DNA of 44,849 nt from Escherichia phage EC115. The translations under genes and the position numbers were made by a program. Positions 24,266 through 40,315 of this stretch are shown in pieces. Every line of letters starts with the position of its first letter. Positions within the stretch are counted from its first letter, which is position 1. Under the pieces are notes generated by a model. It was not told the DNA's origin. It worked only from the letters and a program-made list of their open reading frames with translations, and did not search any database. The stretch lies in sequence record NC_073080.1. One strand, written 5' to 3'.

Positions 24266-24291
24266 GAAGGGGCCGTATGGCCCCTTTTTTA
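24266..24291. terminator. Bidirectional terminator between tail fibre and leftward operon
   Basis: GAAGGGGCC-gtat-GGCCCCTT hairpin followed by six T. Confidence 0.65.
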
Positions 24292-24864: not shown

Positions 24865-24905
24865 TGTGTGGTCCTCATTGATGCGGGCCGAAGCCCGCGA
24901 TTAAA

Positions 24906-25457: not shown

Positions 25458-25461
25458 GTTT

Positions 25462-25491
25462 ACTATAGTGCAACCAACCTATTGGTTGCAA
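25462..25491 (-). promoter_or_regulatory. Promoter with embedded perfect palindromic operator
   Basis: Minus strand TTGCAA-N18-TATAGT; the spacer is filled by TGCAACCAA-ccta-TTGGTTGCA (25469-25490, 9 bp arms). Confidence 0.5.
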
Positions 25492-25949: not shown

Positions 25950-26179
25950 TTTAAGCTCTCAATAAGGGTCTGTCGGGCGCTTCGCGCAGTAACGGAGTTG
26001 CATACGAAATGACAACGCTGAGTCATGACAAGCCAACCGGTGAGGTCAAGGCCCATGATGTATTCGGGGCGAGACGCGCGCACCACACGATCGCGGCGTG
26101 GGTCGATGTTATAGTCTTTTTGCATTTGGTCTACGACCGCGTGGTCGCGGTCAACGATTAAGATATTCATGTAGCTCAC
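25946..26179 (-). CDS. Hypothetical protein
   Basis: 77 aa ORF overlapping both neighbours in operon context. Confidence 0.4.
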   Translation of the reverse strand: MSYMNILIVDRDHAVVDQMQKDYNIDPRRDRVVRASRPEYIMGLDLTGWLVMTQRCHFVCNSVTARSARQTLIESLK

Positions 26180-26636
26180 TCTCGCTCATTATTTCAATTT
26201 GTGCGCTGCCGAGGGGCGGCGCTTCGTCAAATATTATCAATTGCTGGCACTTGTTATTGCTCGGACCGACTTCGCCGGTGACGGCGTGAATGAATCTAAT
26301 CCGCCAGTCCAGAAGAATTATCATATTGGCGGTCTTCCGGGCCAGCTTCGCCCACTTAGTCGACGTGTCCTGATTCAGTAGCATGACGGTCCGGCGTCCG
26401 TGCGCTGCACACTCGACCCACGGCAGCGGATCGGAATATGGCGGGTTGCACCACTTCCACCCTTTCAACTCTGCCCAGTCCGCATCAAGCGCGCTGTGTT
26501 CCTCCGTGAAGTATCGCGGTAGCAGGTGATTGGCATCGCTTGCCGCCATATCGTAACGGAATCGGTACTTCCGACGCAGTGGTTTAAATAAAGCTGGCGG
26601 CGTGCGCCAGCTATCTTTTTGCTCATTCTTCGTCAT
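26151..26636 (-). CDS. dam: DNA N6-adenine methyltransferase (phage Dam-type)
   Basis: 161 aa; WRTPP...DMAASDANHL...WCNPPYS motifs (NPPY catalytic motif) typical of small phage Dam methyltransferases. Confidence 0.8.
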   Translation of the reverse strand: MTKNEQKDSWRTPPALFKPLRRKYRFRYDMAASDANHLLPRYFTEEHSALDADWAELKGWKWCNPPYSDPLPWVECAAHGRRTVMLLNQDTSTKWAKLARKTANMIILLDWRIRFIHAVTGEVGPSNNKCQQLIIFDEAPPLGSAQIEIMSESELHEYLNR

Positions 26637-27081
26637 AGTCTGGATCTATCGCATACAGGGCGGTTTTCTTGCCGCGAGACAGCACACGTTGGACTCGGGA
26701 TATCTCCTCCCTACTGAGCGGTCTGCTATCGGAATAGTAGCTGCCGTTTGCACGCCACGCTATATGCACCAGTCCTTTCCGCGGGATCGAAGACTGGCGG
26801 CCTTTGGGGCGCACGTACTCCTCGGCACGTTTGCAATGCTCGCGCAGACCTTCGGCAGTGATGCGGTTTAGCGCGACGGTGGTGGTGTATCCGGTGCGCT
26901 GCATAATACCCATCAACTCATACAGCAGATCGAAGCGTTCCTCTAACTCCTTGCGCACTTTCTTCTCGCCTTCATATAGCGCCTGGTTGGTGTCCGCCAG
27001 CGCGTTAGCCCGCTCGGCCTGTTCACGGGCTTCGAGGCATTGCGCGGCCCAGTATGCTTTTTCTTCTTGTAAAATTTTCAT
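26623..27081 (-). CDS. Hypothetical coiled-coil protein
   Basis: 152 aa, charged helical N-terminal half; GGAGA RBS. Confidence 0.5.
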   Translation of the reverse strand: MKILQEEKAYWAAQCLEAREQAERANALADTNQALYEGEKKVRKELEERFDLLYELMGIMQRTGYTTTVALNRITAEGLREHCKRAEEYVRPKGRQSSIPRKGLVHIAWRANGSYYSDSRPLSREEISRVQRVLSRGKKTALYAIDPDYDEE

Positions 27082-27324
27082 TTATTTAGTCTCCGTAGTG
27101 CGGATTTCATCGCGTGGAATAAATTTGCCGTCCATCTCGACCCAGCAGACACCGTAGCGCCATTGAGTGTTACGACCTGTTTGCTCTGCGTACACAGTCC
27201 GGCATTCGTAGCGTTCCGAGTAGTAGACCACCGCGGCAGGTGCGAAAACACAAACTGCGATCATGAGGGTGAGTATCACCCAAAATCGAAGGTCGCCGTC
27301 GTAGTCGAAAAATAATGATTTCAT
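27082..27324 (-). CDS. Small membrane protein
   Basis: 80 aa from ATG 27324 (GGAGA RBS); single hydrophobic helix (FWVILTLMIAVCVFAPAAVVYY); track ORF extends to 27543. Confidence 0.5.
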   Translation of the reverse strand: MKSLFFDYDGDLRFWVILTLMIAVCVFAPAAVVYYSERYECRTVYAEQTGRNTQWRYGVCWVEMDGKFIPRDEIRTTETK

Positions 27325-27370
27325 CGTGTTGTCTCCGGGTATTAAAAAGGGCTTCCAACCGGACACCCTT

Positions 27371-27399
27371 AAGATAATGCAACCAATATGATTATGCAA
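27371..27399 (-). promoter_or_regulatory. Candidate promoter with two direct TTGGTTGCA copies
   Basis: Minus strand TTGCAT-N17-TATCTT; 9-mers at 27378-27386 and 27395-27403. Confidence 0.35.
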
Positions 27400-27404
27400 C
27401 CAAT

Positions 27405-27728
27405 TTACGAATAAAAATTTGGGTCGCGCGCTACGTCTACCAGATACAGATTGCTCATGCGGTTGCCGTAGTGCCCTGGTGTGCGCTGGCGGCACACAAC
27501 GGCGAAGCCTGGGGGAATTGTATTGCCCGTCTCGATAATCCACGCCACGCGTGCGCCAGACAGCGTCTTGCCGTTGTATTCGATGCGCGTGCCACCATCG
27601 GCAGTGTTAAGGTTGCCAATCTTACAGCCTGTGGACTTCAGGCGAATGACACCGGTCTTGCTGTCGTAGGAAAAAAGCTGATTGGTCATTGCCACTGAAA
27701 AGTCGATTGCGTCGAATGCAGTATTCAT
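27405..27728 (-). CDS. Hypothetical protein
   Basis: 107 aa ORF, start overlapping the stop of the methyltransferase-like gene. Confidence 0.45.
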   Translation of the reverse strand: MNTAFDAIDFSVAMTNQLFSYDSKTGVIRLKSTGCKIGNLNTADGGTRIEYNGKTLSGARVAWIIETGNTIPPGFAVVCRQRTPGHYGNRMSNLYLVDVARDPNFYS

Positions 27729-28435
27729 TTTAAATTTTCCTCGTTAACCGCTATCGCGAAGCCGCGCGGGGTGAGTGAGCGGATTAATTTTGTACGAGCG
27801 GATTTACCACCGAGGCGACTATACTGCTTCGAGTACCCATTTTCAACGAAAACAGGTTTCTTCTCTGGCATACGGAAGCCGTTGCCGGTCCATAAGCAGG
27901 TCAGCTTCGGATATGAATCGCGGGCGTTGATGTATTCCGGGAATAACGGGTGCACGTCATCCTCCGGCAGATATCCACCATACTCCCACGGGTTAAACGA
28001 GTGGTCCGGCTTGCGCAATTGGGTCGATAGCACGCTGCGCGGATTCTCAATCATATATGGCACTTCGAAGAAGTCCCCCAGGTAAGCGGCGATCTTCGCG
28101 GTGCGCACCGCCTTAAGCTGAAAGGCCGGGTCTTTGGCCCGCTTGCGCGGGAAAGCTGGCGCACCGCTAACTGCCAGATCCGTACACGGCGGGAACGCAT
28201 ATATGATATCCGGCGTACCGAAATCGCCATTCATCGCGCGGTCTACAAAGTCCAGATCGATAAACTCATTGCGATATCGGATCCCGCGACCATAAATCCG
28301 GTAGTCTAGGTACGACCCGTGGTCGGCTTCGGAGTAGTTGAAGCAATAACACTTATGCCCCATCTCGGCAGCACGCTCAATCATCAAGCCGCTGCCGTCA
28401 AGCAATGACCAGATTGTCATTTTAGCAATAGTCAT
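27725..28435 (-). CDS. DNA cytosine-5 methyltransferase-like protein (compact)
   Basis: 236 aa; motif I-like LLDGSG, motif IV-like FPPCTDLAVSG with Cys, ENP (motif VI-like); ATGA overlap with the helicase gene. Confidence 0.5.
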   Translation of the reverse strand: MTIAKMTIWSLLDGSGLMIERAAEMGHKCYCFNYSEADHGSYLDYRIYGRGIRYRNEFIDLDFVDRAMNGDFGTPDIIYAFPPCTDLAVSGAPAFPRKRAKDPAFQLKAVRTAKIAAYLGDFFEVPYMIENPRSVLSTQLRKPDHSFNPWEYGGYLPEDDVHPLFPEYINARDSYPKLTCLWTGNGFRMPEKKPVFVENGYSKQYSRLGGKSARTKLIRSLTPRGFAIAVNEENLK

Positions 28436-29892
28436 TTGCGCGCCTTTTTAGCTTTCATGTATTCCATCAAGTCGTCCTGAATATCTCGCTTACTGTCGCG
28501 ACGTTCGGCGACCAGTTCATCCAGTGTCCCGCGCGCCTGGATAATGTAGACGAATACCGGACGAGGGTGTCCGGCTTGCATCTGGCGAACCGGCCCTATA
28601 CGCTCCACAATCTGCGAAAAGTGCTCATAGTTCCAGGTGTCTGAGAAGATAGCAAGGTGGTGCCCCCCATCCTGCAGGTTAAGTCCGTGACCCGCTGACG
28701 CTGGGTGTGCAAACATGATGGGGATCTCGCCCCTGTTCCACGCTTCCATATCCTTATTTCCTTGCTTACCCTTACCCATCGCTACGCCGTGCGGGAATTT
28801 CTTCTTGAGACGCGCCAGATCATGCTTGTACTGGTATGCGACGAGCAACGGTGCGCCGTTCAACTCCTCCACGATACTTTCCAGCGCGTCCAGCTTAGCG
28901 TCGTGAATTTTCACCCACTCGTCGGTCCGTTCACCGTCTTCGTCGACTTTATACACTGCCCCCGAAGCAAGCTGAAGGCACTTAATGGTCTTCGACGCGG
29001 CGTTCGCCGCCTCCACCGTTCCGCTTTCCAGTTCGGCAAATAGCTCCGCTTCGAACTGGTCATAAATCTTGCGGGCTTTCTTCGGCAGGTCCACAACAAC
29101 CGGCGTATAGATTGGCTTGTCACATCCGAAGTATTCAGCCGCATCAACGGTGAGCGACACGTCGGACAGGCGTTGTTGTATTTCTTTCTCGGAGTTTTTT
29201 AGCGGGGCGTGCTGCATAGTGAAGCTGCTAGGCTTAACCGGCTTGCTAATAAACCAGCGGTCTGTGAATGCCTTATAACTACTGCCGAGGCGTTCGCCAC
29301 CGTCGACAAACCACGTCTGACCCCATAAGTCCTTCAGCCCGTTTGGTGCGGGTGTGCCGGTAAGGTTAATCCAGCGTTTGACGTGCTTATGCGCAATAGC
29401 CGCCAGCGCGCGGGCGCGCTTACTCCCCTGCTTGCTTCTATAGCCTTTCAGCTTAGTGGATTCATCGGCAACAACGACCGTAAAGGGCCACTCGTCGCCG
29501 CAATACTCGACAAGCCACTCAACCACATCATAGTTAACACAAACTACGTTAGCGTCGCTCTCAAGCGCAGCGATGCGGTCCTTCTCTGGTCCGGTGCCGT
29601 CTACTACCAGCAGGGCAGGGAAGCGCCATTTTTCTTGCTCCGGGGGCCATGTACCGGACGCAACGCGCAGCGGGGCCAGCACCAGTACGCGGTCCTCCTG
29701 GTTGGATAGGATGCCGGTCTGGAACATTTTATTCAGCGCCCACATAGTCGCGCCGGTTTTACCAGACCCCATTGTCGCCCATATATTGCATCGCTTATGC
29801 TTGAGGATGAACGCGGTTATCAACTTCTGATATTCGCGACGTCGGAAACGTGCCATATCTTTATTCCGCCTTTTTCCAGACTTCTGTTTCAC
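28432..29892 (-). CDS. SF2 (SNF2/DEAD-like) helicase
   Basis: Walker A MGSGKTG, DEST (DExx) box, C-terminal helicase region; first ATG (MARF...) is at 29856, the track ORF starts at a GTG at 29892. Confidence 0.85.
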   Translation of the reverse strand: MKQKSGKRRNKDMARFRRREYQKLITAFILKHKRCNIWATMGSGKTGATMWALNKMFQTGILSNQEDRVLVLAPLRVASGTWPPEQEKWRFPALLVVDGTGPEKDRIAALESDANVVCVNYDVVEWLVEYCGDEWPFTVVVADESTKLKGYRSKQGSKRARALAAIAHKHVKRWINLTGTPAPNGLKDLWGQTWFVDGGERLGSSYKAFTDRWFISKPVKPSSFTMQHAPLKNSEKEIQQRLSDVSLTVDAAEYFGCDKPIYTPVVVDLPKKARKIYDQFEAELFAELESGTVEAANAASKTIKCLQLASGAVYKVDEDGERTDEWVKIHDAKLDALESIVEELNGAPLLVAYQYKHDLARLKKKFPHGVAMGKGKQGNKDMEAWNRGEIPIMFAHPASAGHGLNLQDGGHHLAIFSDTWNYEHFSQIVERIGPVRQMQAGHPRPVFVYIIQARGTLDELVAERRDSKRDIQDDLMEYMKAKKARK

Positions 29893-30094
29893 TGTTCCAG
29901 TTCCTTTTTGTGGCGTCGTAATTGGTGGCGTGTCCGATGTGCACGCCGGTCGCCCGGAAGCTCTTAAATTTTTGCCAGCACACCGTTAACGGCAGCGGGT
30001 AATTCATGCCCGCGATAAACCATACGCGATCGCCTGGTTTGCATTCGCCCAGTGTGGTGAGTCGGTAGTGTTCTTTCATCTTCATGTCTCCCAA
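29861..30094 (-). CDS. Hypothetical protein
   Basis: 77 aa ORF between the zinc-finger gene and the helicase. Confidence 0.4.
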   Translation of the reverse strand: MGDMKMKEHYRLTTLGECKPGDRVWFIAGMNYPLPLTVCWQKFKSFRATGVHIGHATNYDATKRNWNSETEVWKKAE

Positions 30095-30122
30095 AAATGG
30101 CGGGACAAGCCCGCCGTATTAA

Positions 30123-30296
30123 TTATTTTTGCTCTGCGCGGTAGCGGCGCTGCCGTTCGCGCTCTTTTTTATTGCGGCACGATTTGCACTCCGCCCGATA
30201 CCCGTCCGGGCTACGCGCAGTCTTGCCGGTGTATTTGTGGAACTGGGATAGCGGTTTAACGCAGCCGCAATTACTGCAGCGTTTTTCTTCAATCAT
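30123..30296 (-). CDS. Small zinc-ribbon protein
   Basis: 57 aa from ATG 30296 (GAGGA RBS); CxxC...CxxC motif and basic C-terminus. Confidence 0.5.
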   Translation of the reverse strand: MIEEKRCSNCGCVKPLSQFHKYTGKTARSPDGYRAECKSCRNKKERERQRRYRAEQK

Positions 30297-30327
30297 TTCT
30301 AAAATCCTCGATATGGCTAACCGGCAC

Positions 30328-30356
30328 ACTATACCGCTATGCGACCAATTCAGCAA
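30328..30356 (-). promoter_or_regulatory. Candidate sigma70 promoter
   Basis: Minus strand TTGCTG-N17-TATAGT upstream of the zinc-ribbon gene. Confidence 0.35.
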
Positions 30357-30615
30357 CCAATAAATCACAGTCGGCGATGTTGTCTATAACGCGAACGTCA
30401 GCGCCGCGGCGGGCCATCCGCTCATGTTCACGTACCTGGTGCGGCTTCGGTTTTCCTCCTGGGCGCTTCACTTCGACGAACACTATTTTGCCGTTGATGA
30501 TGATAATCAGGTCGGGCGCACCTGCGCGCCCCTCCCAGGCCATTTTGCGGCAGAATCCGCCTACCTCTTTCACCCGTCGCATCAGGTGACTTTGAATCTT
30601 GCCTTCTGGTGTCAT
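30337..30615 (-). CDS. VRR-NUC domain nuclease
   Basis: 92 aa from ATG 30615; PDLIIIINGKIVFVEVKRPGGKPKPHQ matches the VRR-NUC D...E.K core; start overlaps the polymerase stop. Confidence 0.7.
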   Translation of the reverse strand: MTPEGKIQSHLMRRVKEVGGFCRKMAWEGRAGAPDLIIIINGKIVFVEVKRPGGKPKPHQVREHERMARRGADVRVIDNIADCDLLVAELVA

Positions 30616-32906
30616 TACTTCCTGTACCTGTACATGATGTCGCCTTCGGCGGCAAGCGGGAAGCCTTTCGCCCAAATCGGCAGGTCGCACATCAGCGCGC
30701 ATAGCTCCTCGGTCGTGTAGTCGTCAGTATCCGGAACCTCGGTGATCAGTTCATCGTGTACGGACAGTACGATCTCATATCCCGCAGCTTCAACGCCAGG
30801 CATGGACCATGCGAGGATATCGCGACACAGCGCCTGTACGATGTTTTCCGTGAGTTTGCCGCCGTAGGTGTACTGGAAGCCCCACTGGCGGGTCGTCTGA
30901 TTCTCGCCCTGATATTTAATGCGGGTGCTGGTGCGTTTCTTGCCAGTATCTTCGTCGATCTCGGTAGTGACAGACAGCGCAATGCCTGGATAACTCATAA
31001 TACGCCCCGACGGCAACTCAATTTTCAACCACCACCCCGCGGCGTTCGGGTCGTCGCGTTCCTCGTCGAAGGTTGGGTCATGCTTCGCCTTCGTGCGGAC
31101 TATCTTGAGCGCTTTCTTACCATCCGGGCGAACGTTCGCGCCAGCCCAGTACGCTTTGCCAGGATTGCGGATTGCACACAACACCGCGTCCTCAAGCTCG
31201 GCCCAAAAGGCTACCGTCTTCGGGTGCGCCTCTCGCCACATGCGTTTAATCGCATCACACGTAAGCCATACGTTTTTCGGCAGTATGTAAGTCGGGCGCT
31301 CGTCCTTCTTGCCAGGCTTCGGCGGTCGCTTCGCTTCGTTAATGCGGGCGTACGCATAACCCCGTTTAGCCGCTGCCCAAATGTGATCGGGGAATGTGCC
31401 CTTCATGACGTCCGCCATCGCGTAAAGGTCGAGGCCCAGGTTTTTAGCGAACTGCAAGAACGCAGCCACGCCGCCGCCATAGCCAAGTCCCAACTCACAC
31501 GCCTTACCAATCTGGCGTAGGTCTTTGCGGTTGGCTTTAATGTATTCCGGGTCAAGGCCGAACATCTTACCGGCAGTTTCACAATAAATATCGCGACCGG
31601 CCCTAAACACCATTAGCGCGGTTTTCTCACCAGCGATCCAGGCGAGGCCACGCCCTTCCACGTTAGAATAGTCCGCTACGACAAACTTCTTACCCTTCGC
31701 TGGAATAATGCACCCGCGAACGGTCGAGGCCGTTAGCTTCGATATGTCATACGCCCAGTGCGCTGTCCCGCGTAACAGGGAGTTTATGCCGTTGGTGAGC
31801 ATGTGCGACCGCACCCAAAACGCGACGTCGCTCTCGCCTTCACGGCGTTTAATCTTCCCTTCGTGGTCGTCGCTATACTCGCCGCGTGCCAGGTTTTGCG
31901 GCTGGAAGCCTTTACCGGCCCAGCGTAGCGTGCGTTTCGCCCCACCATACTGGAGACACCCACGACGGCGACCATCTGCAGATAAGCCATTAACGAGCGG
32001 ATTGTACTTAGTCGATGCCGTTGATGATGCACCGAGGCGCATCTCGATAAGCACTTTGCCCTCGTCGGGGAAGTCCGGGTCTTCCAGCAGGTCGTTAAGC
32101 GTGGATTTCTGCGCGTTGTGTATTGTGAACGCAGGCGCGAGGTCGCGCAGCGCTGGCAGGAAGTCATTGCCTGTCAGCTTACCGCCGAAGCGCTCCCATG
32201 CTTCTTCCTTCAATTCTTCCTTATGCGCCTGCACCGCTTTGATCGCGGCGTTCGCCAGGTCAACGTCCACATAGAAGCCGCGGTCGTTGATCAACTGGTC
32301 AATAAGCAGGATTTCATCTTCCTTCGGCGTGTTACCCCAGTCCGGTATGCGCCAGTAGACTTCCCTCATCGCTATAATGTCAAGCGCGGCATAGCGCAGG
32401 AATTTAGCCCACTCCTCGGGGTGCGTCTCGCGCGTGTAGCGGCGGATTTTGTAGGTCTTAGGGGTTGGCTTACAGAATCGTTTGATCAGCGCCTTGCCCG
32501 CCTTATCCTTCGCGTGCTCTGCGTCAACGCCCAGCACCTGGCATTGCATATCGAGGCTACCCGGCAGCGCGTGGCGAAAGGCCATAATCATGGTATCTTC
32601 GATCTGGCCTACCGGCAGGTCAATGCCCCACTTCTCGCGAATAACCAGGCGGTCAAACAGGAGGCCGTTAGCCATCACGATTTTTGCTTTCTTGCGGGAT
32701 ACCTGGCGGAGCGCCTTGCGCAGTTCACGCGGCATTGTGGGGGATTCGGTGCAATCCCAGGTCTGCACGCGGCCCTCGTCGATGGCGTATGTGCAAATCA
32801 TAATCTCAGTAGTTGGGTGTTCCGCGTAGGCGTATGCGCCCACTTTCTTCAGATCCACCCCGCTAAATGTCTCGGTATCGAGAAACAGGCGTTCAAAGTC
32901 TTTCAT
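30615..32906 (-). CDS. DNA polymerase, family A (3'-5' exonuclease plus polymerase)
   Basis: 763 aa; Exo I-like LDTETFS, motif A-like VADYSNVEGR, motif B-like RQIGKACELGLGYG, motif C LSVHDELI. Confidence 0.9.
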   Translation of the reverse strand: MKDFERLFLDTETFSGVDLKKVGAYAYAEHPTTEIMICTYAIDEGRVQTWDCTESPTMPRELRKALRQVSRKKAKIVMANGLLFDRLVIREKWGIDLPVGQIEDTMIMAFRHALPGSLDMQCQVLGVDAEHAKDKAGKALIKRFCKPTPKTYKIRRYTRETHPEEWAKFLRYAALDIIAMREVYWRIPDWGNTPKEDEILLIDQLINDRGFYVDVDLANAAIKAVQAHKEELKEEAWERFGGKLTGNDFLPALRDLAPAFTIHNAQKSTLNDLLEDPDFPDEGKVLIEMRLGASSTASTKYNPLVNGLSADGRRRGCLQYGGAKRTLRWAGKGFQPQNLARGEYSDDHEGKIKRREGESDVAFWVRSHMLTNGINSLLRGTAHWAYDISKLTASTVRGCIIPAKGKKFVVADYSNVEGRGLAWIAGEKTALMVFRAGRDIYCETAGKMFGLDPEYIKANRKDLRQIGKACELGLGYGGGVAAFLQFAKNLGLDLYAMADVMKGTFPDHIWAAAKRGYAYARINEAKRPPKPGKKDERPTYILPKNVWLTCDAIKRMWREAHPKTVAFWAELEDAVLCAIRNPGKAYWAGANVRPDGKKALKIVRTKAKHDPTFDEERDDPNAAGWWLKIELPSGRIMSYPGIALSVTTEIDEDTGKKRTSTRIKYQGENQTTRQWGFQYTYGGKLTENIVQALCRDILAWSMPGVEAAGYEIVLSVHDELITEVPDTDDYTTEELCALMCDLPIWAKGFPLAAEGDIMYRYRK

Positions 32907-33073
32907 TGCTTAATCCTCACTACGGCGTCGGCGCTGCCGATCATGGAGAAGATACCGTCGGAAAGGGTTATCTCCTCGCCGTTGTTACGAACCTCGGCAA
33001 CGGTGAAATACTCGCCCAGCAGTTTAGACCATACCTGCATTCCGACTTTTACTTCGCTGGCTTTAATGCGCAT
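32903..33073 (-). CDS. Small ORF translationally coupled to polymerase (hypothetical)
   Basis: 56 aa (MRIKASEVKVGMQVWSKLLGEY...), AGGA RBS, ATGA overlap with the polymerase start; below the ORF-track size cutoff. Confidence 0.3.
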   Translation of the reverse strand: MRIKASEVKVGMQVWSKLLGEYFTVAEVRNNGEEITLSDGIFSMIGSADAVVRIKQ

Positions 33074-33084
33074 TTTTCATTGTC

Positions 33085-33113
33085 CTATTAAAAAGCCCGC
33101 ATTAAGCGGGCTT
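33085..33113 (-). terminator. Intrinsic terminator after SSB gene
   Basis: On the minus strand AAGCCCGC-uuaau-GCGGGCUU followed by UUUAAU. Confidence 0.45.
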
Positions 33114-33131
33114 GAATAGTGGGCTTTGCCC

Positions 33132-33914
33132 TTAACGGCGGCGACGTTTACGTGGCGCTTCGTCTTCGTCGTCGTCCTCATCTTCGTCATCGCGTGGCTT
33201 ACGACGTTTACGAGGTTTCTCGTCTTCGTCATCATCATCGTCATCGCGGCGCTTGGACTTTTTGGACTTGCGCGGCTTGTCGTCTTCGTCATCGTCATCA
33301 CGACGTTTTGACTTTTTGGACTTGCGCGGGCTTTCATCTTCGTCATCGTTGTCCAGGTCTTCGTCTGAGCAAGAAGAACCGCCACCGCCGAAGGCTTCGC
33401 CGTCATCGCGGAAGCGCAGACCCAAAAGACCCGCACCGAGTCCCTTGCCGTTGGTATTGTTCCACGCCCAAATGTCGAGGGACACGTTGCAATAACAACC
33501 GGAGTAGATCTCCTGGCCTTCGATCTCGTCACCTTCTACGGTCAGACCTTGTTCAGTCTGTTTCTCGCCGAGTGACGTTTGAATGTTTGGCTGCTTGAAC
33601 GATTTGGCGTTGATGTACAACATGCCTTCAAATTCTTCGGTTACTTCGTCACGCTCGTCACCGTCGCGGACTGCGCATTCCTTAGAATCCTGGGCGTAGT
33701 GCCGGTCCATCCACTTATCGGCATTCTTCTCGGATTTCAGCTTGTCGGTGAGCACTGCGCGCGCTGCCGCTTCCACTTTGTCCACCAGCGGATCTTCTTT
33801 ATCCAGAAGAATCACTGCACGGTATGCCGGTTTTTGTCCATCCTGTTTAGGGGTATCACGTTCCCAAATTTTCAGGAAACATACGCGCACATTTTTCAGG
33901 TTGACTTTAGCCAT
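33132..33914 (-). CDS. Single-stranded DNA-binding protein (T7 gp2.5 / DUF2815-like) with repetitive charged C-terminal tail
   Basis: N-terminus MAKVNLKNVRVCF... (start at ATG 33914 with GAGGA RBS; track ORF 33935); C-terminal third is three DDDDEDDKPRKSKKSKRR-type repeats. Confidence 0.55.
   Translation of the reverse strand: MAKVNLKNVRVCFLKIWERDTPKQDGQKPAYRAVILLDKEDPLVDKVEAAARAVLTDKLKSEKNADKWMDRHYAQDSKECAVRDGDERDEVTEEFEGMLYINAKSFKQPNIQTSLGEKQTEQGLTVEGDEIEGQEIYSGCYCNVSLDIWAWNNTNGKGLGAGLLGLRFRDDGEAFGGGGSSCSDEDLDNDDEDESPRKSKKSKRRDDDDEDDKPRKSKKSKRRDDDDDDEDEKPRKRRKPRDDEDEDDDEDEAPRKRRRR
33160..33340 (-). repeat. Tandem ~57-60 bp repeats (3 copies) inside SSB gene
   Basis: Repeated cgtcttcgtcatcgtcatc...gactttttggacttgcgcgg units on the plus strand. 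Confidence 0.7.
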
Positions 33915-34004
33915 TTTCCAATTCCTCATTTTCACATGTATCGGGGTTATTATGAGCCACCCCGTTCGGCTTGGTTGCTAATCTACTTGGTTGCGCCTAA
34001 GCGA

Positions 34005-34247
34005 TCAAGCACTTTTATTAAAAAGATTTCTGGTCACGTAGTTGGTAGCGTTCTCGACCCAGCTTAACGGCGGTCGGTCGATGTTCTTCTCCACCCAGTC
34101 GACGGCAGCGTCACTATATCCGTCGTCAAGCCAGCGGGTCGGATGGCGAATCATCCAGGCTACCATTAACACGCCTTGCACGCAATGCAGGATAAATCCC
34201 AGCGCGCCGAGCAAAAACATCAATAAGATCGCAAATACTTTATTCAT
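34005..34247 (-). CDS. Small membrane protein
   Basis: 80 aa with two hydrophobic helices (AILLMFLLGALGFIL; VLMVAWMI). Confidence 0.45.
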   Translation of the reverse strand: MNKVFAILLMFLLGALGFILHCVQGVLMVAWMIRHPTRWLDDGYSDAAVDWVEKNIDRPPLSWVENATNYVTRNLFNKSA

Positions 34248-35670
34248 TGCTTAAGTCCTCGTCAGTAGCTTCCGACCACGCAGGGCGCGGGTCGTCGATC
34301 GGTGCTAACACCGGTTTGGCGGGTGCGCGCGTGATTTTAGCACACAGCTTCGCCCACACTTTCGGTTTTTCGTCCTTCAGTACCTTCTCGGCATCGGTCG
34401 GGCTGAGCAATGTTTCTTTGTACATCACATCGCGCTTGATCCGGGCCTTCGTGAAGATTTCAATCACTTCGCTCTCGTCCGCCCACTTACGGATCCCTTC
34501 CTTACCGGCAACCATCTTGAGGCCTAGCGATTCGCCATCGCCCGCCATGACCGCCTTGAATACCGCTGACTCGATAGCCTTGATGTGCTGGCGCATCGCA
34601 TCAAGGCCTTCATAAGCCTTGCGCAGTTCCGCCGCGCTCATAGCGCCGGGGGCCGCTTCCTTCTTGCCGCGCTTCGCACGTCGGGCCGCCTTCCGGGCTT
34701 CGCGGGCCATATTGCGGTCGTGATTGGCGCATTCTTCCTCGGTCGCCACGCTCACGTCGTCGCCCAGGTCTTCGTCGGTTGCCGTTGGTGGTGTCATCGT
34801 GTCGATTGCGGCCTTCGCCCGGACGCTGCACTGGTCCGCAAATCTGCACCACTGGCACGCATCAACGCTCGGTCTGAAGTCGGCGCGGGTGAGTCCCTTT
34901 TTGCCTCTGGCGTACGCTTCCAGCGCGGCGATAGCGCGCTTGGATGCAAACTTCGCGAATATCTCCAGGGCTTCTACCGAAATATCCCATTCCGACGCCC
35001 CACCGCAATACGGCTGGAAGATAACCAAGCGCACAGACGTAATGTCGTACATGGTTTGCAGCTTGCGCAGCAGGCCGAGCGCGTACAACATAAGCTGTTT
35101 GTTTTCTTTCGCCTCGACCTTATGCCGCCCAGTCTTCAGGTCGCCAACAATCAGCATGTACGTCCCGTCGGTCTTTTTCATGACCATGACCATATCGGCA
35201 GTACCGAACGTTTTAATCCTGTTGCCGTCGATCTCGTAGCCTGAGTGAAGGACGCGGGTCAGGTCGGCGCGCATCTCAAGCTGGACAAACTCCGCCACTT
35301 CGAGGAGCGGTCGCCAGTGGTCGATGTACGCGTCGCACTGTTTCACCATGTCGTCGTTGACCAGTACGCCGCCTTTCGGTGCTTTAGGGTGTGCCTTCAC
35401 TGGCCCCTTGCCTTCGTTCTCGACGTAGCACCCTTTATACGTCTTTGCGGTTATCTGCTTCTCACCGGCGATAATACGGTTTAGCACCACTTCAGATACG
35501 GTGTGCATACTCGTACCGTTAATCGCGGCTTGCCCGGATTCGTTAGGGATATCTTTTTCCACCACCAGGGCGGCCGGACACCCCATCCATTTTTTAGCTC
35601 CGGATGGCCCGAGTAATGAGTGTTCCGTATTACTACCGGATTGCGTTTTACGTTTTGGTTTAATCGCCAT
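34240..35670 (-). CDS. PD-(D/E)xK exonuclease, DUF2800 / Cas4-like (putative)
   Basis: 476 aa; N-terminal HSLLGPSGAKKWMGCPA-type motif with a C-terminal Cys cluster (CQWCRFADQC); gene partner of the gp2.5-like SSB. Confidence 0.6.
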   Translation of the reverse strand: MAIKPKRKTQSGSNTEHSLLGPSGAKKWMGCPAALVVEKDIPNESGQAAINGTSMHTVSEVVLNRIIAGEKQITAKTYKGCYVENEGKGPVKAHPKAPKGGVLVNDDMVKQCDAYIDHWRPLLEVAEFVQLEMRADLTRVLHSGYEIDGNRIKTFGTADMVMVMKKTDGTYMLIVGDLKTGRHKVEAKENKQLMLYALGLLRKLQTMYDITSVRLVIFQPYCGGASEWDISVEALEIFAKFASKRAIAALEAYARGKKGLTRADFRPSVDACQWCRFADQCSVRAKAAIDTMTPPTATDEDLGDDVSVATEEECANHDRNMAREARKAARRAKRGKKEAAPGAMSAAELRKAYEGLDAMRQHIKAIESAVFKAVMAGDGESLGLKMVAGKEGIRKWADESEVIEIFTKARIKRDVMYKETLLSPTDAEKVLKDEKPKVWAKLCAKITRAPAKPVLAPIDDPRPAWSEATDEDLSNE

Positions 35671-35858
35671 TATTCCACCCTTGAAAACTGAGCAATGTAA
35701 TATTCATGTTTAACCCCAGCACGCTTCGCGGCTTCGTTCATGGTAGCCGCCAAACCTCTGGCTTGAGTCCAGCAGCAATTCCAGTTCTGATTCATAACGA
35801 TTTCCGGTTGCTCATCGCCGGTAATACGGCAACGAAATAAAACAAAGAATATAGCCAT
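35670..35858 (-). CDS. Hypothetical protein
   Basis: 62 aa ORF with abutting neighbours. Confidence 0.4.
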   Translation of the reverse strand: MAIFFVLFRCRITGDEQPEIVMNQNWNCCWTQARGLAATMNEAAKRAGVKHEYYIAQFSRVE

Positions 35859-36110
35859 TTATTTTGTCTCCCAGCGGTCAATCGTTCTTGCTTCGGATGC
35901 AACTGCAAAGCGAACATATTCCAGATTGGAATCCGCCCAAATATAAAAGTCGGGGTTAGTAAAGGTGGTGCGCTTAATTTGCGCGGGGGTGTTACGGCGT
36001 TTATCTATTACAGCAACGCGCGATTGAAAGCTGCCGATGCGTTCGAATAGCCAATAGTACGGGCGCTGGTCGCGGGAATCCACCGCCTCGATTAGCGTGA
36101 ATCGTGCCAT
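35859..36110 (-). CDS. Hypothetical protein
   Basis: 83 aa ORF with GAGGA RBS. Confidence 0.5.
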   Translation of the reverse strand: MARFTLIEAVDSRDQRPYYWLFERIGSFQSRVAVIDKRRNTPAQIKRTTFTNPDFYIWADSNLEYVRFAVASEARTIDRWETK

Positions 36111-36120
36111 TGTCTCGTCC

Positions 36121-36151
36121 TCTAAAAAGAGGCCCGCTAATATGCGGGCCT
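36121..36151 (-). terminator. Intrinsic terminator (leftward)
   Basis: On the minus strand AGGCCCGC-auauua-GCGGGCCU followed by CUUUUUA. Confidence 0.45.
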
Positions 36152-36288
36152 GATAATATTAATCTTCACCGCCGAGTTGTTTATAAACCTCGTCCGGGTC
36201 GTCGCCTCTTTCTTCGCAGAAGGCGGTGAATTCCGCCCAATTTTCTGCTATGAAATCGAGCATGATTCTCATTTCATAGTCCATGATA

Positions 36289-36828
36289 TTAGTCTTCCAG
36301 TTCGAAATAAGTTTCGACGATTTCTTTTAGCTCTGTGTGGAAGTCTTCGACGTCGTCATCTTCCAGCTTGGCGATTGATTTGATCTCGAACGATTCCAGA
36401 AGGTCGTCGAATTCGTCGTTGGCATCGTCGTCGTCACCACCCGCGATAATAGCGGCGTACTGTTTGATCTCGTCGCGCATCTCCGCCAGCGGATCGGCAT
36501 CTTTCTTACCTTTGCCTTTAGCCGGTGCTTTTTTGGTTTTCGCCGGTTTTACGTCATCGGCATCGTCGTCGTCGTCATCTTCTACGACTTCTTTTTTGGC
36601 TTTACCTTTAGACTTGGTTTCTTTTGCCGCGCCTTTTTTCGCTTTTGGCGCATCTTCGACTTCGTCCTGGTCGTCGTCTTCGACTTCAGTCTCCGGCTTG
36701 GCCTTGCCTTTCTTAGCTGTGCCGTTTGCTTTTGGGTCTACGGCAGCGCCAACGGTTTCATAATGCTTAGCGATGGTTTCCAGTGCTACTACGCCGCGAG
36801 TAATCAGGTTTACGATTTGTTCAAACAT
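36289..36828 (-). CDS. Highly charged low-complexity protein (alternating Lys-rich and Asp/Glu-rich blocks)
   Basis: 179 aa; first gene of the leftward operon with GGAG RBS; long poly-acidic runs interleaved with KKGKAK-type basic stretches. Confidence 0.6.
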   Translation of the reverse strand: MFEQIVNLITRGVVALETIAKHYETVGAAVDPKANGTAKKGKAKPETEVEDDDQDEVEDAPKAKKGAAKETKSKGKAKKEVVEDDDDDDADDVKPAKTKKAPAKGKGKKDADPLAEMRDEIKQYAAIIAGGDDDDANDEFDDLLESFEIKSIAKLEDDDVEDFHTELKEIVETYFELED

Positions 36829-37026
36829 GTTTTATATCTCCGATTGGTTAAGTTTAGGTGTCGACCATTAACTTCGTCGGTGGCCTTAACATATTGCCAG
36901 GTTACGCGTTCTCCCGTTCGGGTAGTGGACCTGGTTATATAATCACGGTTGGGAATCCTGACACTTCGATCCGGCCCCTGCGTTGCCCCTCTCCAGTTTG
37001 CGTCCTGCATCCTGTCGACGAGGTGA

Positions 37027-37055
37027 ATATTAGATTGGTTGCATGAGGGAGTCAA
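37027..37055 (-). promoter_or_regulatory. Leftward sigma70-like promoter for the early/replication operon
   Basis: Minus strand TTGACT-N17-TAATAT; overlaps a TTGGTTGCA 9-mer. Confidence 0.5.
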
Positions 37056-37063
37056 CAACTAAT

Positions 37064-37101
37064 TTCAAAAAAAAAGCGCCGAAGCAAAATGCGACGGCGC
37101 T
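37064..37101 (-). terminator. Strong leftward intrinsic terminator (orphan, upstream of the leftward promoter)
   Basis: On the minus strand AGCGCCG-14 nt loop-CGGCGCU followed by nine U (the A9 run on the plus strand). Confidence 0.6.
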
Positions 37102-37125
37102 AACCAATAAGAGACAATGAGACGG
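37067..37125 (-). ncRNA. Candidate small RNA (about 55 nt) ending at the orphan terminator
   Basis: Candidate leftward promoter at about 37131-37158 (TTGAAA-N17-AATAAT on the minus strand) lies about 30 nt upstream of the hairpin; no ORF. Hypothetical. Confidence 0.25.
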
Positions 37126-37170
37126 GAGTATTATTACACGCGTGCGCGCCCGTTTCAATATCCAAAGGAT

Positions 37171-37199
37171 TTGACACCTTGTGGTTTTAGGTGTAGTTT
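37171..37199 (+). promoter_or_regulatory. Rightward promoter for the HTH/primase operon
   Basis: TTGACA-N17-TAGTTT, then GAGGG RBS before the ATG at 37231; divergent from the leftward promoters. Confidence 0.45.
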
Positions 37200-37230
37200 C
37201 GTTGGTCATTAACCAACTGAGGGCAGAGCA

Positions 37231-37560
37231 ATGAATGTAAACGACGCAATCGAAATGTTAACGACGACTGTTAGCAGTGAAACAAGCCGGTCATGGGCTT
37301 ATACCGATGCCGTTGGGGCGGTGCTATTTGAGGTCGAGCGCCTGCGCAGTGTAGAAAAAGAATTACGCGCCAGGCTGGAATTGCTCAACGGTACGGCGGC
37401 GAGCAAGCTACAAAAACACAATGAAGAAATGGAAGAATACAAAAAGCAGGTTATCCGTTTGCGCGCCGAGGGCAAATCCTGGGCGATGATTGCCGAGTTG
37501 ACCGGAATTAATCAGAGCACAGTGCGCTCTTGGGTACGCAATAACAAAACTTCTAAGTAA
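37231..37560 (+). CDS. HTH DNA-binding protein (putative regulator)
   Basis: 109 aa; helical N-terminus and C-terminal HTH-like segment (SWAMIAELTGINQSTVRSW). Confidence 0.6.
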   Translation: MNVNDAIEMLTTTVSSETSRSWAYTDAVGAVLFEVERLRSVEKELRARLELLNGTAASKLQKHNEEMEEYKKQVIRLRAEGKSWAMIAELTGINQSTVRSWVRNNKTSK

Positions 37561-40258: not shown

Positions 40259-40287
40259 TTGCATTCGGCCTGGCACCTTGCTATATT
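40259..40287 (+). promoter_or_regulatory. Sigma70-like promoter flanked by TTGGTTGCA copies
   Basis: TTGCAT-N17-TATATT; 9-mers at 40255-40263 and 40286-40294; GAGGA RBS before the ATG at 40316. Confidence 0.5.
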
Positions 40288-40315
40288 GGTTGCACACCAA
40301 CATGAGGACTGAACA

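What the first reader, a model, noticed from the sequence alone, without database searches (positions are those of the whole stretch)
37064..37160. Orphan strong terminator upstream of the early leftward promoter, possibly defining a ~55 nt small RNA
A leftward-only intrinsic terminator (7 bp GC stem followed by nine U) lies upstream of the leftward operon promoter (37027-37055), with no gene on that strand to its right. A candidate leftward promoter (TTGAAA-N17-AATAAT, about 37131-37158) sits just upstream, back to back with the rightward HTH/primase promoter. This predicts a short non-coding transcript or a terminator insulating divergent early promoters.
Basis: inference. Interest (0 to 1): 0.55.

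Follow-up and report, generated by a model that had tools for sequence, protein, structure and literature searches.

The report
Conserved small RNA gene between early promoters
A virulent E. coli phage (Dhillonvirus) carries, between its two divergent early operons, a conserved promoter-plus-terminator unit that should make a ~55-nt non-coding RNA; the RNA's free 5' end is complementary to the ribosome-binding sites of the first gene of each operon, so it looks like an unannotated phage regulatory RNA.

Summary
On the minus strand there is a strong intrinsic terminator: hairpin 37101-37075, nine U at 37075-37067. It lies 55 nt downstream of a near-consensus sigma-70 promoter (TTGAAA-17-TGT-AATAAT, 37158-37130), and no gene is involved.

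The window is a complete Dhillonvirus genome. The unit is present in every Dhillonvirus examined. Its 22-nt unpaired 5' region is the most conserved stretch of the intergenic region. The stem carries two compensatory pair changes in one divergent lineage. The ORFs that cross it are frameshifted among relatives.

Phages whose primase is only 37-46% identical (Guernseyvirinae-like) keep the same layout beside the primase gene, with unrelated sequences.

The RNA's 5' tail can pair with the translation-initiation region (TIR) of the HTH gene (20 bp, covering SD and AUG) and of the first leftward gene (15 bp, covering SD). These pairings are better than any of 1000 shuffled seeds. Two distant lineages show the analogous match to their primase TIR.

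Best reading: a trans-acting anti-TIR small RNA, a functional cousin of lambda OOP, P22 Sar and P1 C4.

No expression data exist, and a genome-wide DNA box sharing the AACCAAY core is a caveat.

Verdict: new member of a known kind, moderate interest.

The parts
37153..37158 (-). -35 hexamer TTGAAA of the small-RNA promoter
   Evidence: One variable column among 21 distinct relatives.
37136..37152 (-). 17-nt promoter spacer. It is G+C-rich with alternating purine/pyrimidine (CGGGCGCGCACGCGTGT), contains the palindrome CACGCGTG, and ends in the TGT of an extended -10.
   Evidence: Variants (C/T transitions) keep the alternation.
37130..37135 (-). -10 hexamer AATAAT, preceded by TG at 37138-37137
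   Evidence: Invariant in 21 distinct sequences.
37067..37123 (-). Predicted small RNA of about 54-57 nt. The TSS is inferred at G37123 (7 nt after the -10); the 3' end lies in the U-run.
   Evidence: The TSS is inferred, not measured.
37102..37123 (-). Unpaired 5' region GUCUCAUUGUCUCUUAUUGGUU, the proposed seed
   Evidence: Unpaired in the MFE and centroid folds. One variable column of 20. Complementary to two TIRs.
37075..37101 (-). Terminator hairpin: 7-bp outer stem, 3-bp inner stem, 3-nt loop
   Evidence: Two compensatory pair changes (G-C to U-A and G-C to C-G) in L014/L028.
37067..37075 (-). U9 tract. Its length varies from 8 to 12 among relatives.
37027..37055 (-). Leftward operon promoter P_L (TTGACT-17-TAATAT), starting 12 nt downstream of the U-run. 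Its spacer contains a GCAACCAAT box (37034-37042).
37171..37199 (+). Rightward promoter P_R (TTGACA-17-TAGTTT), back to back with the small-RNA promoter; the two -35 hexamers are 12 bp apart.
   Evidence: The -35 is invariant. The site is below the tool's threshold.
37210..37234 (+). Predicted target 1: TIR of the 109-aa HTH gene. Three helices with sRNA nt 4-23 cover UAACCAA, the SD (UGAGGG) and the start codon (GCAAUGA).
   Evidence: 20 bp, -19.9 kcal/mol. Rank 1 of 60 TIRs. Holds in other lineages.
36835..36850 (-). Predicted target 2: TIR of the first leftward gene (179 aa, ATG at 36828). UAACCAAU plus the SD GGAGAUA pair with sRNA nt 8-23.
   Evidence: 15 bp, -18.0 kcal/mol. Rank 3 of 60. 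At most 1 of 300 shuffles is as good in most lineages.

Best explanation
This is a small, self-contained gene for a non-coding RNA.

Proposed sequence of events:
1. Host sigma-70 RNA polymerase starts at about G37123, from a near-consensus promoter with an extended -10.
2. It stops 54-57 nt later at a strong intrinsic terminator.
3. The product has a 22-24 nt unstructured 5' tail (GUCUCAUUGUCUCUUAUUGGUUAG) and a 3' hairpin with a long U tail. A long U tail is the usual stabilising and Hfq-binding module of enterobacterial sRNAs.
4. The tail pairs in trans with the TIR of the first gene of the rightward operon (HTH regulator, followed by primase-helicase) and of the first gene of the leftward operon. 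This occludes the Shine-Dalgarno sequence and, on the right, the AUG.
5. The likely result is damping or timing of early-gene translation.
6. As a by-product, the terminator keeps this constitutive transcription out of P_L.

Shown by sequence analysis:
- the motifs and the fold;
- the conservation pattern;
- two compensatory stem changes;
- the lack of conserved coding frames;
- the synteny of equivalent units in distant relatives;
- the statistical excess of complementarity.

Inferred only:
- that the RNA is made;
- its exact ends;
- Hfq involvement;
- that pairing occurs and represses rather than activates.
For: 1. Unit anatomy.
2. Presence: the unit is in every Dhillonvirus sampled. 153-191 GenBank records match the region. 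There are 10 sRNA sequence variants, differing only in the loop, the U-run length and one lineage's stem.
3. Conservation profile over 21 distinct sequences. Conserved: seed 1/20 variable columns, -10 0/6, -35 1/6. Variable: discriminator 5/6, inter-promoter spacer 7/12, P_R spacer 13/17.
4. Stem covariation: 100% of cells paired; 2 pairs changed on both sides in L014/L028.
5. Non-coding: both ORFs crossing the site change frame and length among close relatives.
6. Distant relatives: about 20 Guernseyvirinae-like phages (primase 37-46% identical) have a minus-strand promoter 14-18 bp from the primase ATG, then 67-106 nt, then a strong terminator. The terminator abuts the stop codon of a Cro/XRE-type HTH gene. 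The sequences are unrelated to this one.
7. TIR ranking in this genome: of 60 TIRs, the two flanking first genes rank 1 and 3 for duplex energy with the seed. Five of the top 7 are the genes nearest the unit. None of 1000 shuffled seeds match either that count or the summed energy.
8. The complementarity holds in nearly all Dhillonvirus lineages (-17 to -24 kcal/mol against a shuffle mean of -8 to -11).
9. Independent lineages repeat the design. Group G4 sRNA carries UUCCAUGCU-UC-GUUCUC, antisense to its primase SD+AUG (-23.8, 0/1000). Group G1 gives -29.0 (0/1000), -21.3 (13/1000) and -20.0 (29/1000).
10. K1G has a candidate promoter inside the primase 5' end that would give a cis-antisense RNA over the primase TIR, ending at the equivalent terminator.
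Against: - No expression data exist for any Dhillonvirus.
- Covariation rests on one lineage (34/500 shuffles reach it).
- A whole-transcriptome duplex scan gives no hit better than shuffled seeds. The signal appears only when the search is restricted to TIRs, and the 'early-proximal' gene set was defined after seeing the result.
- Split seeds are weak: nt 1-16 gives p about 0.04; nt 1-13 and nt 14-24 are not significant.
- The UAACCAA block shares its AACCAAY core with a DNA box, GCAACCAAY. That box occurs 18 times against 1.0 expected, and one copy lies inside P_L. Part of the complementarity could therefore reflect protein-binding sites.
- Groups G2/G3 show no sRNA-primase TIR match.
- One lineage with a replaced right-hand gene (L013) loses the right-hand match.
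- Phage Jersey shows only the terminator.
Confidence: 0.45

Rival explanations
1. The promoter-terminator pair acts at the DNA/transcription level and the RNA is a by-product. A strong divergent partner promoter tunes P_R by RNAP competition, shared upstream contacts or local supercoiling. The terminator only stops this transcription from running into P_L, and its T-tract doubles as an A/T-rich upstream element for P_L.
For: - The -35 hexamers of the two promoters are 12 bp apart, back to back.
- The spacer is a conserved alternating purine/pyrimidine GC tract. Its variants keep the alternation but not the palindrome. This would suit a supercoiling-sensitive promoter.
- The U-run ends 12 nt from the -35 of P_L.
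- A preprint abstract reports widespread promoter-terminator coupling in bacteria (listed; the text is not held).
Against: - It does not explain why the transcribed 5' region is the most conserved stretch while the discriminator and the inter-promoter spacer vary.
- It does not explain why that region is antisense to two TIRs.
- In the Guernseyvirinae-like relatives the equivalent unit has no divergent partner promoter and sits between two co-directional genes.
Confidence: 0.2
2. The shared UAACCAA(Y) blocks are binding sites of a phage DNA-binding regulator, in the same family as the 18 GCAACCAAY boxes. On this view the sRNA-TIR complementarity is incidental: the conserved 'seed' is an operator lying in DNA that happens to be transcribed.
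For: - AACCAAY occurs 24 times against 10.9 expected, and GCAACCAAY 18 times against 1.0. The copies are often paired or palindromic, lie in promoter-like places, and one is in the P_L spacer.
- The TTGGT-N5-ACCAA palindrome at the start of the P_R transcript (37202-37216) recurs upstream of the gene at 40316.
- The adjacent gene encodes an HTH protein with HTH_23 and sigma-70 region 4 similarity.
Against: - The three sites have YTA, not TGC, before the AACCAA core, so they form a separate subclass.
- Complementarity extends beyond the core into the SD and the AUG.
- Both mRNA copies sit 1-2 nt upstream of their SD, which fits an RNA-level role.
- The G1 and G4 lineages show the same antisense-TIR design with other sequences, including the start codon.
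Confidence: 0.15
3. The transcript serves replication. It would be a primer, or a transcriptional activator of an origin next to the primase-helicase gene. This was once proposed for lambda oop and is comparable to promoter-dependent origins of T7 and T4 (from memory).
For: - The unit is always adjacent to the primase-helicase gene or operon across very divergent phages.
- Cumulative GC skew has its minimum near 36.5-37 kb.
- The RNA ends in an A/T tract.
Against: - The GC-skew switch coincides with the switch in transcription direction, so it says nothing specific.
- No origin-like iterons or AT-rich unwinding element were identified.
- A primer role does not predict an antisense-TIR sequence or a strong terminator.
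Confidence: 0.12
4. The unit is a leader/attenuator. The strong upstream promoter is the real driver of the leftward operon, and the terminator is overcome by a phage antitermination factor (Q-, N- or put-like).
For: - The unit has the same orientation as the leftward operon and lies just upstream of it.
- A promoter-proximal terminated transcript resembles lambda pR'-6S-tR' (described).
- A conserved structured RNA lies in the operon leader downstream.
Against: - A separate conserved promoter, P_L, lies downstream of the terminator.
- No alternative anti-terminator pairing is possible for the 5' region.
- In relatives the terminator faces a convergent HTH gene, so read-through would be antisense.
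Confidence: 0.05
5. The promoter-like and terminator-like motifs are adjacent by chance and have no function.
For: - A site scoring >=10/12 is expected 3.6 times per genome by chance.
- There is no experimental evidence.
Against: - Near-invariance across the genus, stem covariation and positional conservation of equivalent units in distant relatives.
Confidence: 0.03

Closest known systems
Lambda OOP RNA (pO-oop-tO)
   Same: - A short RNA with its own sigma-70 promoter and intrinsic terminator.
- Transcribed leftward, against the rightward early operon.
- Placed between a small HTH regulator gene and the replication gene. (PMC5869508): oop runs leftward from pO to the tO hairpin.
- The Guernseyvirinae-like relatives reproduce this layout (HTH gene, terminator, RNA, promoter, primase).
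- Acts as an antisense regulator.
   Different: - OOP overlaps 52 nt of cII and acts as a perfect cis-antisense RNA with RNase III. Here the RNA overlaps no gene and no known transcript.
- P_R lies downstream of it, and the proposed targets are partial matches in trans.
- There is no sequence similarity.
- The phage is virulent, so there is no lysogeny decision to regulate.
P22 Sar RNA and the P1/P7 C4 (N15 CB, P4 CI) immunity RNAs; details from memory, not checked here
   Same: - Small phage RNAs whose job is to pair with the ribosome-binding region of an early regulatory gene and block its translation.
- C4 uses two short separated blocks of complementarity to a non-overlapping target. The pairing predicted here is likewise in two or three blocks.
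   Different: - Sar is cis-encoded opposite its target.
- C4 is processed from the same transcript as its target and controls an antirepressor in temperate phages.
- Here the RNA is a primary transcript with its own promoter, in a virulent phage, with two predicted targets on divergent operons.
Hfq-dependent phage sRNAs such as lambda PreS/LPR1 (bioRxiv 10.1101/2024.10.31.621285)
   Same: - The 3' end is a GC-rich hairpin followed by poly-U.
- Phage-encoded and trans-acting by imperfect pairing.
   Different: - PreS arises at a terminator of the early left operon and targets host mRNAs (dnaN).
- Here the RNA has a dedicated promoter and the predicted targets are phage TIRs.
- Hfq binding was not tested, and host targets could not be searched.
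Lambda 6S RNA (pR'-tR')
   Same: A constitutive promoter followed closely by a terminator, giving a short transcript upstream of an operon.
   Different: The 6S terminator is read through under Q to express the late genes. Here a separate promoter follows the terminator, and no Q-like logic is evident.

Membership tests
Intrinsic (Rho-independent) terminator | G+C-rich hairpin immediately followed by a U-tract on the transcribed strand | tested here: met
   A stem of 6 G-C pairs plus 1 A-U pair, then U9. The fold gives -16.2 kcal/mol with z = -2.8. It has the longest T-run of 7 such sites in the genome.
Intrinsic (Rho-independent) terminator | Stem maintained by compensatory change | tested here: met
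   Two pairs changed on both sides in L014/L028, and 100% of cells are paired. Only 4 distinct sequences were available.
Sigma-70 promoter | -35 and -10 hexamers at 16-18 bp spacing | tested here: met
   TTGAAA-17-AATAAT with an extended-10 TG, scoring 10/12. The hexamers are near-invariant in 21 sequences.
Sigma-70 promoter | Initiates transcription | not testable with these tools
   No transcriptome of any Dhillonvirus was found.
Hfq-dependent trans-acting sRNA | Terminator hairpin with a long 3' U tail | tested here: met
   U9 here, and 8-12 in relatives.
Hfq-dependent trans-acting sRNA | Single-stranded conserved seed with complementarity to target TIRs | tested here: met
   The 5' 24 nt are unpaired and the most conserved stretch. 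TIR complementarity beats all 1000 shuffles. Split-seed tests are weak.
Hfq-dependent trans-acting sRNA | Binds Hfq; regulation depends on Hfq | not testable with these tools
   Needs co-IP, RIL-seq or an hfq mutant.
Lambda OOP-type cis-antisense RNA | Overlaps the 3' end of the upstream rightward regulator gene on the opposite strand | tested here: not met
   No plus-strand gene or promoter lies to the left of the unit in the window. In relatives only the stop codon is touched.
Lambda OOP-type cis-antisense RNA | Own promoter and terminator, placed immediately upstream of the replication gene and opposed to the rightward operon | tested here: met
   In the window the HTH gene lies between the unit and the primase gene.
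Any curated RNA family (Rfam 15) | Covariance-model match at or near the gathering score | tested here: not met
   No match at gathering score in the whole window. Only terminator-driven noise at E >= 0.18 in 36800-37300.
Protein-coding gene (the GenBank SM_S22 CDS across the site) | Reading frame conserved among relatives | tested here: not met
   Frame and length change among close relatives: 7-74 aa on the minus strand and 3-40 aa on the plus strand. A-run length varies from 8 to 12.

The most novel reading that the evidence does not exclude
One ~55-nt phage RNA governs both divergent early operons at once, because it is the antisense of a TIR module (UUAACCAA-N2-GGAGAC...AUG) shared by their first genes.

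One of those genes encodes a sigma-region-4-like HTH protein, which may be the factor that reads the 18 GCAACCAAY boxes. On this reading the RNA would be the timer of the early-to-middle/late switch in a virulent phage.

The same 'antisense-of-the-TIR RNA next to the replication gene' design, in cis or in trans, would then be an ancestral feature of the whole Dhillonvirus/Guernseyvirinae group: an OOP-like device outside temperate phages.
Probability: 0.25. Interest if true: 0.75.

Novelty: new member of a known kind. Interest (0 to 1): 0.57.

Why it matters
Regulatory RNAs of virulent phages are barely charted. The classic cases (OOP, Sar, C4) and the recent Hfq-dependent ones (PreS) all come from temperate phages.

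Dhillonviruses are common E. coli phages, used in the BASEL collection and in therapy-oriented work. Current annotations either leave this spot empty or place a spurious CDS on it.

If the RNA is real, three things follow:
- It gives a simple, testable handle on how early translation is set in these phages: one 22-nt seed and two TIRs.
- It corrects the annotations.
- It shows that an OOP-like 'small antisense unit next to the replication gene' persists across a large group of virulent siphophages even though its sequence is completely replaced.

Tried and rejected
- Rfam: nothing at gathering score, and only terminator-driven noise at permissive E-values.
- E. coli complete genomes: no homologue of the unit, so it is not a host or prophage sRNA copy.
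- Exact 15-mer scans of IMG/VR and of metagenome contigs: no new sRNA variants. The metagenome hits were all chance matches, so the pattern was too short and that scan was largely wasted.
- Whole-transcriptome duplex scan: no target stands out over shuffled seeds. Only the TIR-restricted test is significant.
- Coding potential of the 59-aa minus-strand ORF and the 31-aa plus-strand ORF: rejected because of frameshifts.
- Attenuator with an alternative structure: the 5' region has no complement to the terminator arm. In a 300-nt read-through fold the 5' region pairs with the left TIR, but the fold is not exceptional (z = -1.8).
- Bidirectional terminator: rejected in the window because there is no plus-strand T-run. 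The G2/G3 relatives do have bidirectional-looking terminators.
- Cornellvirus VSiA: the strong sRNA match to leftward-operon TIRs (0/300 shuffles) is largely explained by similarity between terminator+SD modules, so I do not count it as independent support.
- GC skew as origin evidence: confounded with transcription direction.
- tRNA/tmRNA search: none found.
- Literature: no paper on Dhillonvirus or Guernseyvirinae transcription or sRNAs.

Full report
**Context.** The window is a complete Dhillonvirus genome (HK578-like virulent E. coli siphophage). The stretch 36800-37300 is 100% identical to Escherichia phage SM_S22 and 90-96% identical to more than 120 other records.

Long ORFs run as follows (annotation):
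- rightward from 1 to about 24260 (structural genes);
- leftward from 24289 to 36828 (DNA polymerase, Gp2.5-like SSB, exonuclease and others);
- rightward again from 37231 (a 109-aa HTH protein, then the 754-aa primase-helicase).

The finding therefore lies in the single divergent intergenic region, 36829-37230.

**The observation.** On the minus strand the sequence reads ...GUUAGCGCCGUCGCAUUUUGCUUCGGCGCUUUUUUUUUGAAAUUAG.
- RNAfold gives an outer stem 37101-37095 / 37081-37075, an inner 3-bp helix, and an unpaired 24-nt 5' flank. The energy is -16.2 kcal/mol (z = -2.8).
- Nine U follow (37075-37067), and the first can close the stem.
- No T-run follows on the plus strand.
- The consensus scan missed the hairpin because of its loop limit.
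- The same scan found the promoter TTGAAA-17-AATAAT with an upstream TG at 37158..37130 (10/12) and P_L at 37055..37027.
- In my genome-wide scan this is one of two sites scoring >=10/12 and the only one with TG. The terminator has the longest T-run of seven hairpin+T>=6 sites. Shuffles yield 3.6 equally good promoter matches per genome, so the motifs alone prove little.
- With the TSS placed 7 nt after the -10 (G37123), the RNA would be 54-57 nt.

**Conservation within the genus.** The first alignment covered 13 intergenic regions; 21 distinct ones were later compared.
- The block from the P_L -35 through the U-run, hairpin, 5' region and small-RNA promoter is kept. Flanking stretches vary.
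- Variable columns: 1/20 in the transcribed 5' region, 0/6 in the -10, 1/6 in the -35. By contrast: 5/6 in the discriminator, 7/12 between the two -35 hexamers, 13/17 in the P_R spacer. Feature boundaries in that table are within 2 nt of the final coordinates.
- The sRNA occurs in only ten sequence variants. They differ in two loop positions, in U-run length (8-12) and, in one lineage, in the stem.
- That lineage is IMG/VR contig L014 and phage Ioannina L028 (primase 83% identical). It has AUCCCCG...CGGGGAU instead of AGCGCCG...CGGCGCU. This gives two pairs changed on both sides and one A-U to G-U change, with all cells paired. With four distinct sequences this is modest: 34/500 shuffles reach it.
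- The 59-aa minus-strand CDS that GenBank record SM_S22 places over the site, and a 31-aa plus-strand ORF, both change frame and length among close relatives. The region is non-coding.

**Distant relatives.** Phages whose primase-helicase is only 37-46% identical were examined. They comprise IMG/VR contigs, Hafnia phage TS33 and Cornellvirus VSiA, all Guernseyvirinae-like with a syntenic genome map.
- They carry, on the strand opposite to the primase gene, a sigma-70-like promoter 14-18 bp from the primase ATG. Examples are TTGACT-18-TATACT and (G)TTGCA-17-GATAAT.
- The promoter is followed by 67-106 nt and a strong terminator (U5-U10).
- The terminator abuts the stop codon of the upstream plus-strand gene, a Cro/XRE-type HTH protein or a small membrane protein.
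- In 19 of 20 loci a terminator passed my filter. In 15 the promoter scored 8-10 of 12 hexamer positions; the 8.5/9.5 values printed include a 0.5 bonus for a 17-bp spacer. The 'G4' group has a weaker -10 (TTTAAT).
- The RNA sequences fall into at least five unrelated groups, and their terminator stems differ by many compensating changes.
- Architecture and position are conserved while sequence is not. That is the pattern expected of a functional small transcription unit.
- The layout (HTH gene, terminator, RNA, promoter, replication gene) is that of lambda cII-oop-O.
- In these relatives the unit lies between two co-directional genes, so it is not an insulator between divergent promoters.
- Jerseyvirus Jersey keeps only the minus-strand terminator next to the primase start. 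Kagunavirus K1G also has a 9/12 promoter inside the first 40 nt of the primase gene, which would give a cis-antisense RNA across the primase TIR. This last point is weak evidence.

**What the RNA could do.** The 5' tail is GUCUCAUUGUCUCUUAUUGGUUAG.
- TTGGTTA occurs five times in the genome and three of them are here: in the sRNA, and, in the complementary sense, 1-2 nt upstream of the Shine-Dalgarno sequence of the first gene on each side.
- RNAduplex predicts 20 bp in three helices with the HTH-gene TIR (37210-37216 UAACCAA, 37218-37223 UGAGGG, 37228-37234 GCAAUGA), at -19.9 kcal/mol. It predicts 15 bp with the leftward first gene (36850-36843 and 36841-36835, including GGAGA), at -18.0 kcal/mol.
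- Among 60 predicted TIRs these two rank first and third. Five of the top seven are the genes closest to the unit.
- None of 1000 shuffled seeds reach that count (maximum 4) or the summed energy of the two flanking TIRs.
- The match holds in nearly every Dhillonvirus lineage (-17 to -24 kcal/mol against shuffle means of -8 to -11). It becomes a continuous 15-bp duplex in L030/L031, whose TIR reads UAACCAAUAGGAGAC.
- It is lost on the right in L013, where the right-hand gene has been replaced, but not in L029.
- Two distant groups show the same design with other sequences. The G4 RNA begins with UUCCAUGCU-UC-GUUCUC, the antisense of the primase AUG and SD located about 55 nt away (-23.8, 0/1000 shuffles). 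The G1 RNA carries CCCUUGAGCGG in a hairpin loop, antisense to the primase SD region (-29.0, 0/1000; -21.3, 13/1000; -20.0, 29/1000). Groups G2/G3 do not.

**Caveats.**
1. A scan of all sense transcripts gives no hit better than shuffled seeds. The signal exists only within TIRs, and I defined the 'early-proximal' set after seeing the ranking.
2. Split seeds are weak.
3. AACCAAY is over-represented genome-wide: 24 occurrences against 10.9 expected. Most of this comes from an 18-copy box, GCAACCAAY (1.0 expected). The box is often paired or palindromic, sits in promoter-like places, and has one copy in the P_L spacer. It is almost certainly a protein-binding DNA box. The three UAACCAAY sites differ from it in the upstream three bases, but some of the complementarity may reflect related DNA sites.
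4. The VSiA result is explained by similar terminator+SD modules and is not counted as support.
5. No transcriptome exists for these phages.

**Mechanism and rivals.**
- Most likely (0.45): a constitutively transcribed small RNA whose free 5' end pairs in trans with the TIRs of the first genes of both early operons. It limits or times their translation. The hairpin and U9 tail provide stability and probably Hfq binding. The terminator incidentally shields P_L.
- Rival 1 (0.20): a DNA-level role of the promoter-terminator pair, as a partner promoter for P_R plus an insulator.
- Rival 2 (0.15): the conserved block is a protein operator.
- Rival 3 (0.12): a replication primer or origin-activating transcript.
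- Rival 4 (0.05): a regulated attenuator.
- Rival 5 (0.03): chance.
- The first two rivals do not explain the antisense-TIR design recurring in G1 and G4. The origin idea rests only on adjacency and on a GC-skew minimum that coincides with the change in transcription direction.

**Comparison with known systems.**
- Functionally it resembles lambda OOP in layout and small size. It also resembles the anti-RBS RNAs Sar (P22) and C4 (P1/P7); those details are from memory.
- It is not a member of any of these. It overlaps no gene, has its own promoter, shares no sequence with them, matches no Rfam family, has no homologue in E. coli genomes, and sits in a virulent phage.
- I file it as a new member of the known kind 'phage-encoded small antisense/regulatory RNA'.

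**Side observations.**
- The roughly 155 nt between P_L and the first leftward RBS (36853-37012, minus-strand RNA) form a facultative cassette among Dhillonviruses.
- Homologues of that cassette sit in intercistronic gaps of Drexlerviridae, Murrayvirus and a Klebsiella phage. They fold into a multi-helix structure with abundant compensatory changes, and there is no Rfam match.
- The GCAACCAAY box is described above under caveat 3.
- Both deserve their own follow-up.

Noticed in passing
window 36853-37012 (minus-strand RNA; 5' leader of the leftward operon); also L288, L289, L290, L291, L294-L305: A structured RNA element of about 130-155 nt lies just downstream of P_L.
- It is a facultative cassette among Dhillonviruses. 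Some relatives have the 13-nt GGGCGGTATGCCC in its place, and L014/L028 lack it.
- Homologues at 77-92% identity lie in same-strand intercistronic gaps of unrelated siphophages: Changchunvirus PHB17, Warwickvirus ityhuna, Murrayvirus Lumpael, Klebsiella KA2-1 and about 10 IMG/VR contigs.
- RNAalifold finds 26-30 pairs, 7-9 of them with compensatory changes.
- A further helix (CCAGGT/ACCTGG in the window) appears in at least 8 different compensated versions.
- Several G-U pairs fix the strand.
- Conserved blocks are GGAGAGGRGCRACGCWGGGGC, GGATTCCCAACCGTGA, AGAACGC and GAGGCYACCGACGAAG.
- There is no Rfam match.

It may be a new cis-acting RNA (antitermination, processing, stability or riboswitch-like).
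   Followed up: partly
window, 18 sites: 6174, 6188, 16816, 22280, 25470/25481, 27379, 27396, 30353, 37034, 39847, 39882, 40164, 40254, 40285, 40840, 43404, 43427: The 9-mer GCAACCAAY occurs 18 times against 1.0 expected (0/100 shuffles reach 18).
- Copies are often in pairs 10-35 bp apart.
- One pair forms a perfect palindrome, TGCAACCAAcctaTTGGTTGCA, at 25469-25490.
- Copies are frequently flanked by -10-like hexamers, for example TATACT-GCAACCAAC, GATAAT-GCAACCAAT and TATAGT-GCAACCAAC.
- One copy lies inside the spacer of P_L.

This looks like the operator or promoter box of a phage regulator. A candidate is the 109-aa HTH protein at 37231-37560, which has sigma-70 region 4 similarity.
   Followed up: partly
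window 37202-37216 and 40286-40300: The palindrome TTGGT-N5-ACCAA lies immediately upstream of the SD of the HTH gene and recurs upstream of the gene starting at 40316. The two TIRs are similar overall (…ACCAAC(A/U)GAGG(A/G)C…CAAUGAA). It could be an operator or a 5'-UTR hairpin.
   Followed up: no
window 37030-37209 (-) and 36810-37010 (-); GenBank PP627283 CDS0052 and CDS0051: The near-identical GenBank record annotates small CDSs over the sRNA/terminator and over the structured leader RNA. The first is frameshifted among relatives, so it is probably a false gene call. Other records label the HTH gene variously as transposase, resolvase or 'recombination nuclease inhibitor gamma'.
   Followed up: partly
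L013 and L029 against the window, at about 37171-37235: A mosaic boundary lies exactly at the -35 of P_R. In two lineages everything to the right (promoter spacer, 5' UTR and first gene) is replaced by a different module, while the sRNA unit is retained.
   Followed up: no
L251-L262, L034, L035 and L256-L261: the sRNA promoters of relatives: The small-RNA promoters of the Guernseyvirinae-like relatives carry inverted repeats that bracket the -10 hexamer (GCAACACG-N11-CGTGTTGC; AACACCT-N10-AGGTGTT). This suggests a repressor, perhaps the adjacent Cro/XRE protein, controls them. Dhillonvirus P_R has a similar ACACCT-N9-AGGTGT between its -35 and -10.
   Followed up: no
phage records MG065648.1, OQ221563.1 and GQ502199.1: Records named 'Campylobacter phage A144', 'Acinetobacter phage NJ01' and 'Sodalis phage SO-1' are about 95% identical to E. 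coli Dhillonviruses over this region. The host labels of the first two look doubtful (contamination or mislabelling).
   Followed up: no
window 36130-36151 (-) and VSiA L287 around 30292 and 33199: Internal terminator-like hairpins in the leftward operon are followed directly by the SD of the next gene ('terminator+SD modules'). In VSiA these modules are near-complementary to its small RNA (GGGCUUUUCU..AAGUGGG against CCCACUUCGAGAAAAGCCC).
   Followed up: partly
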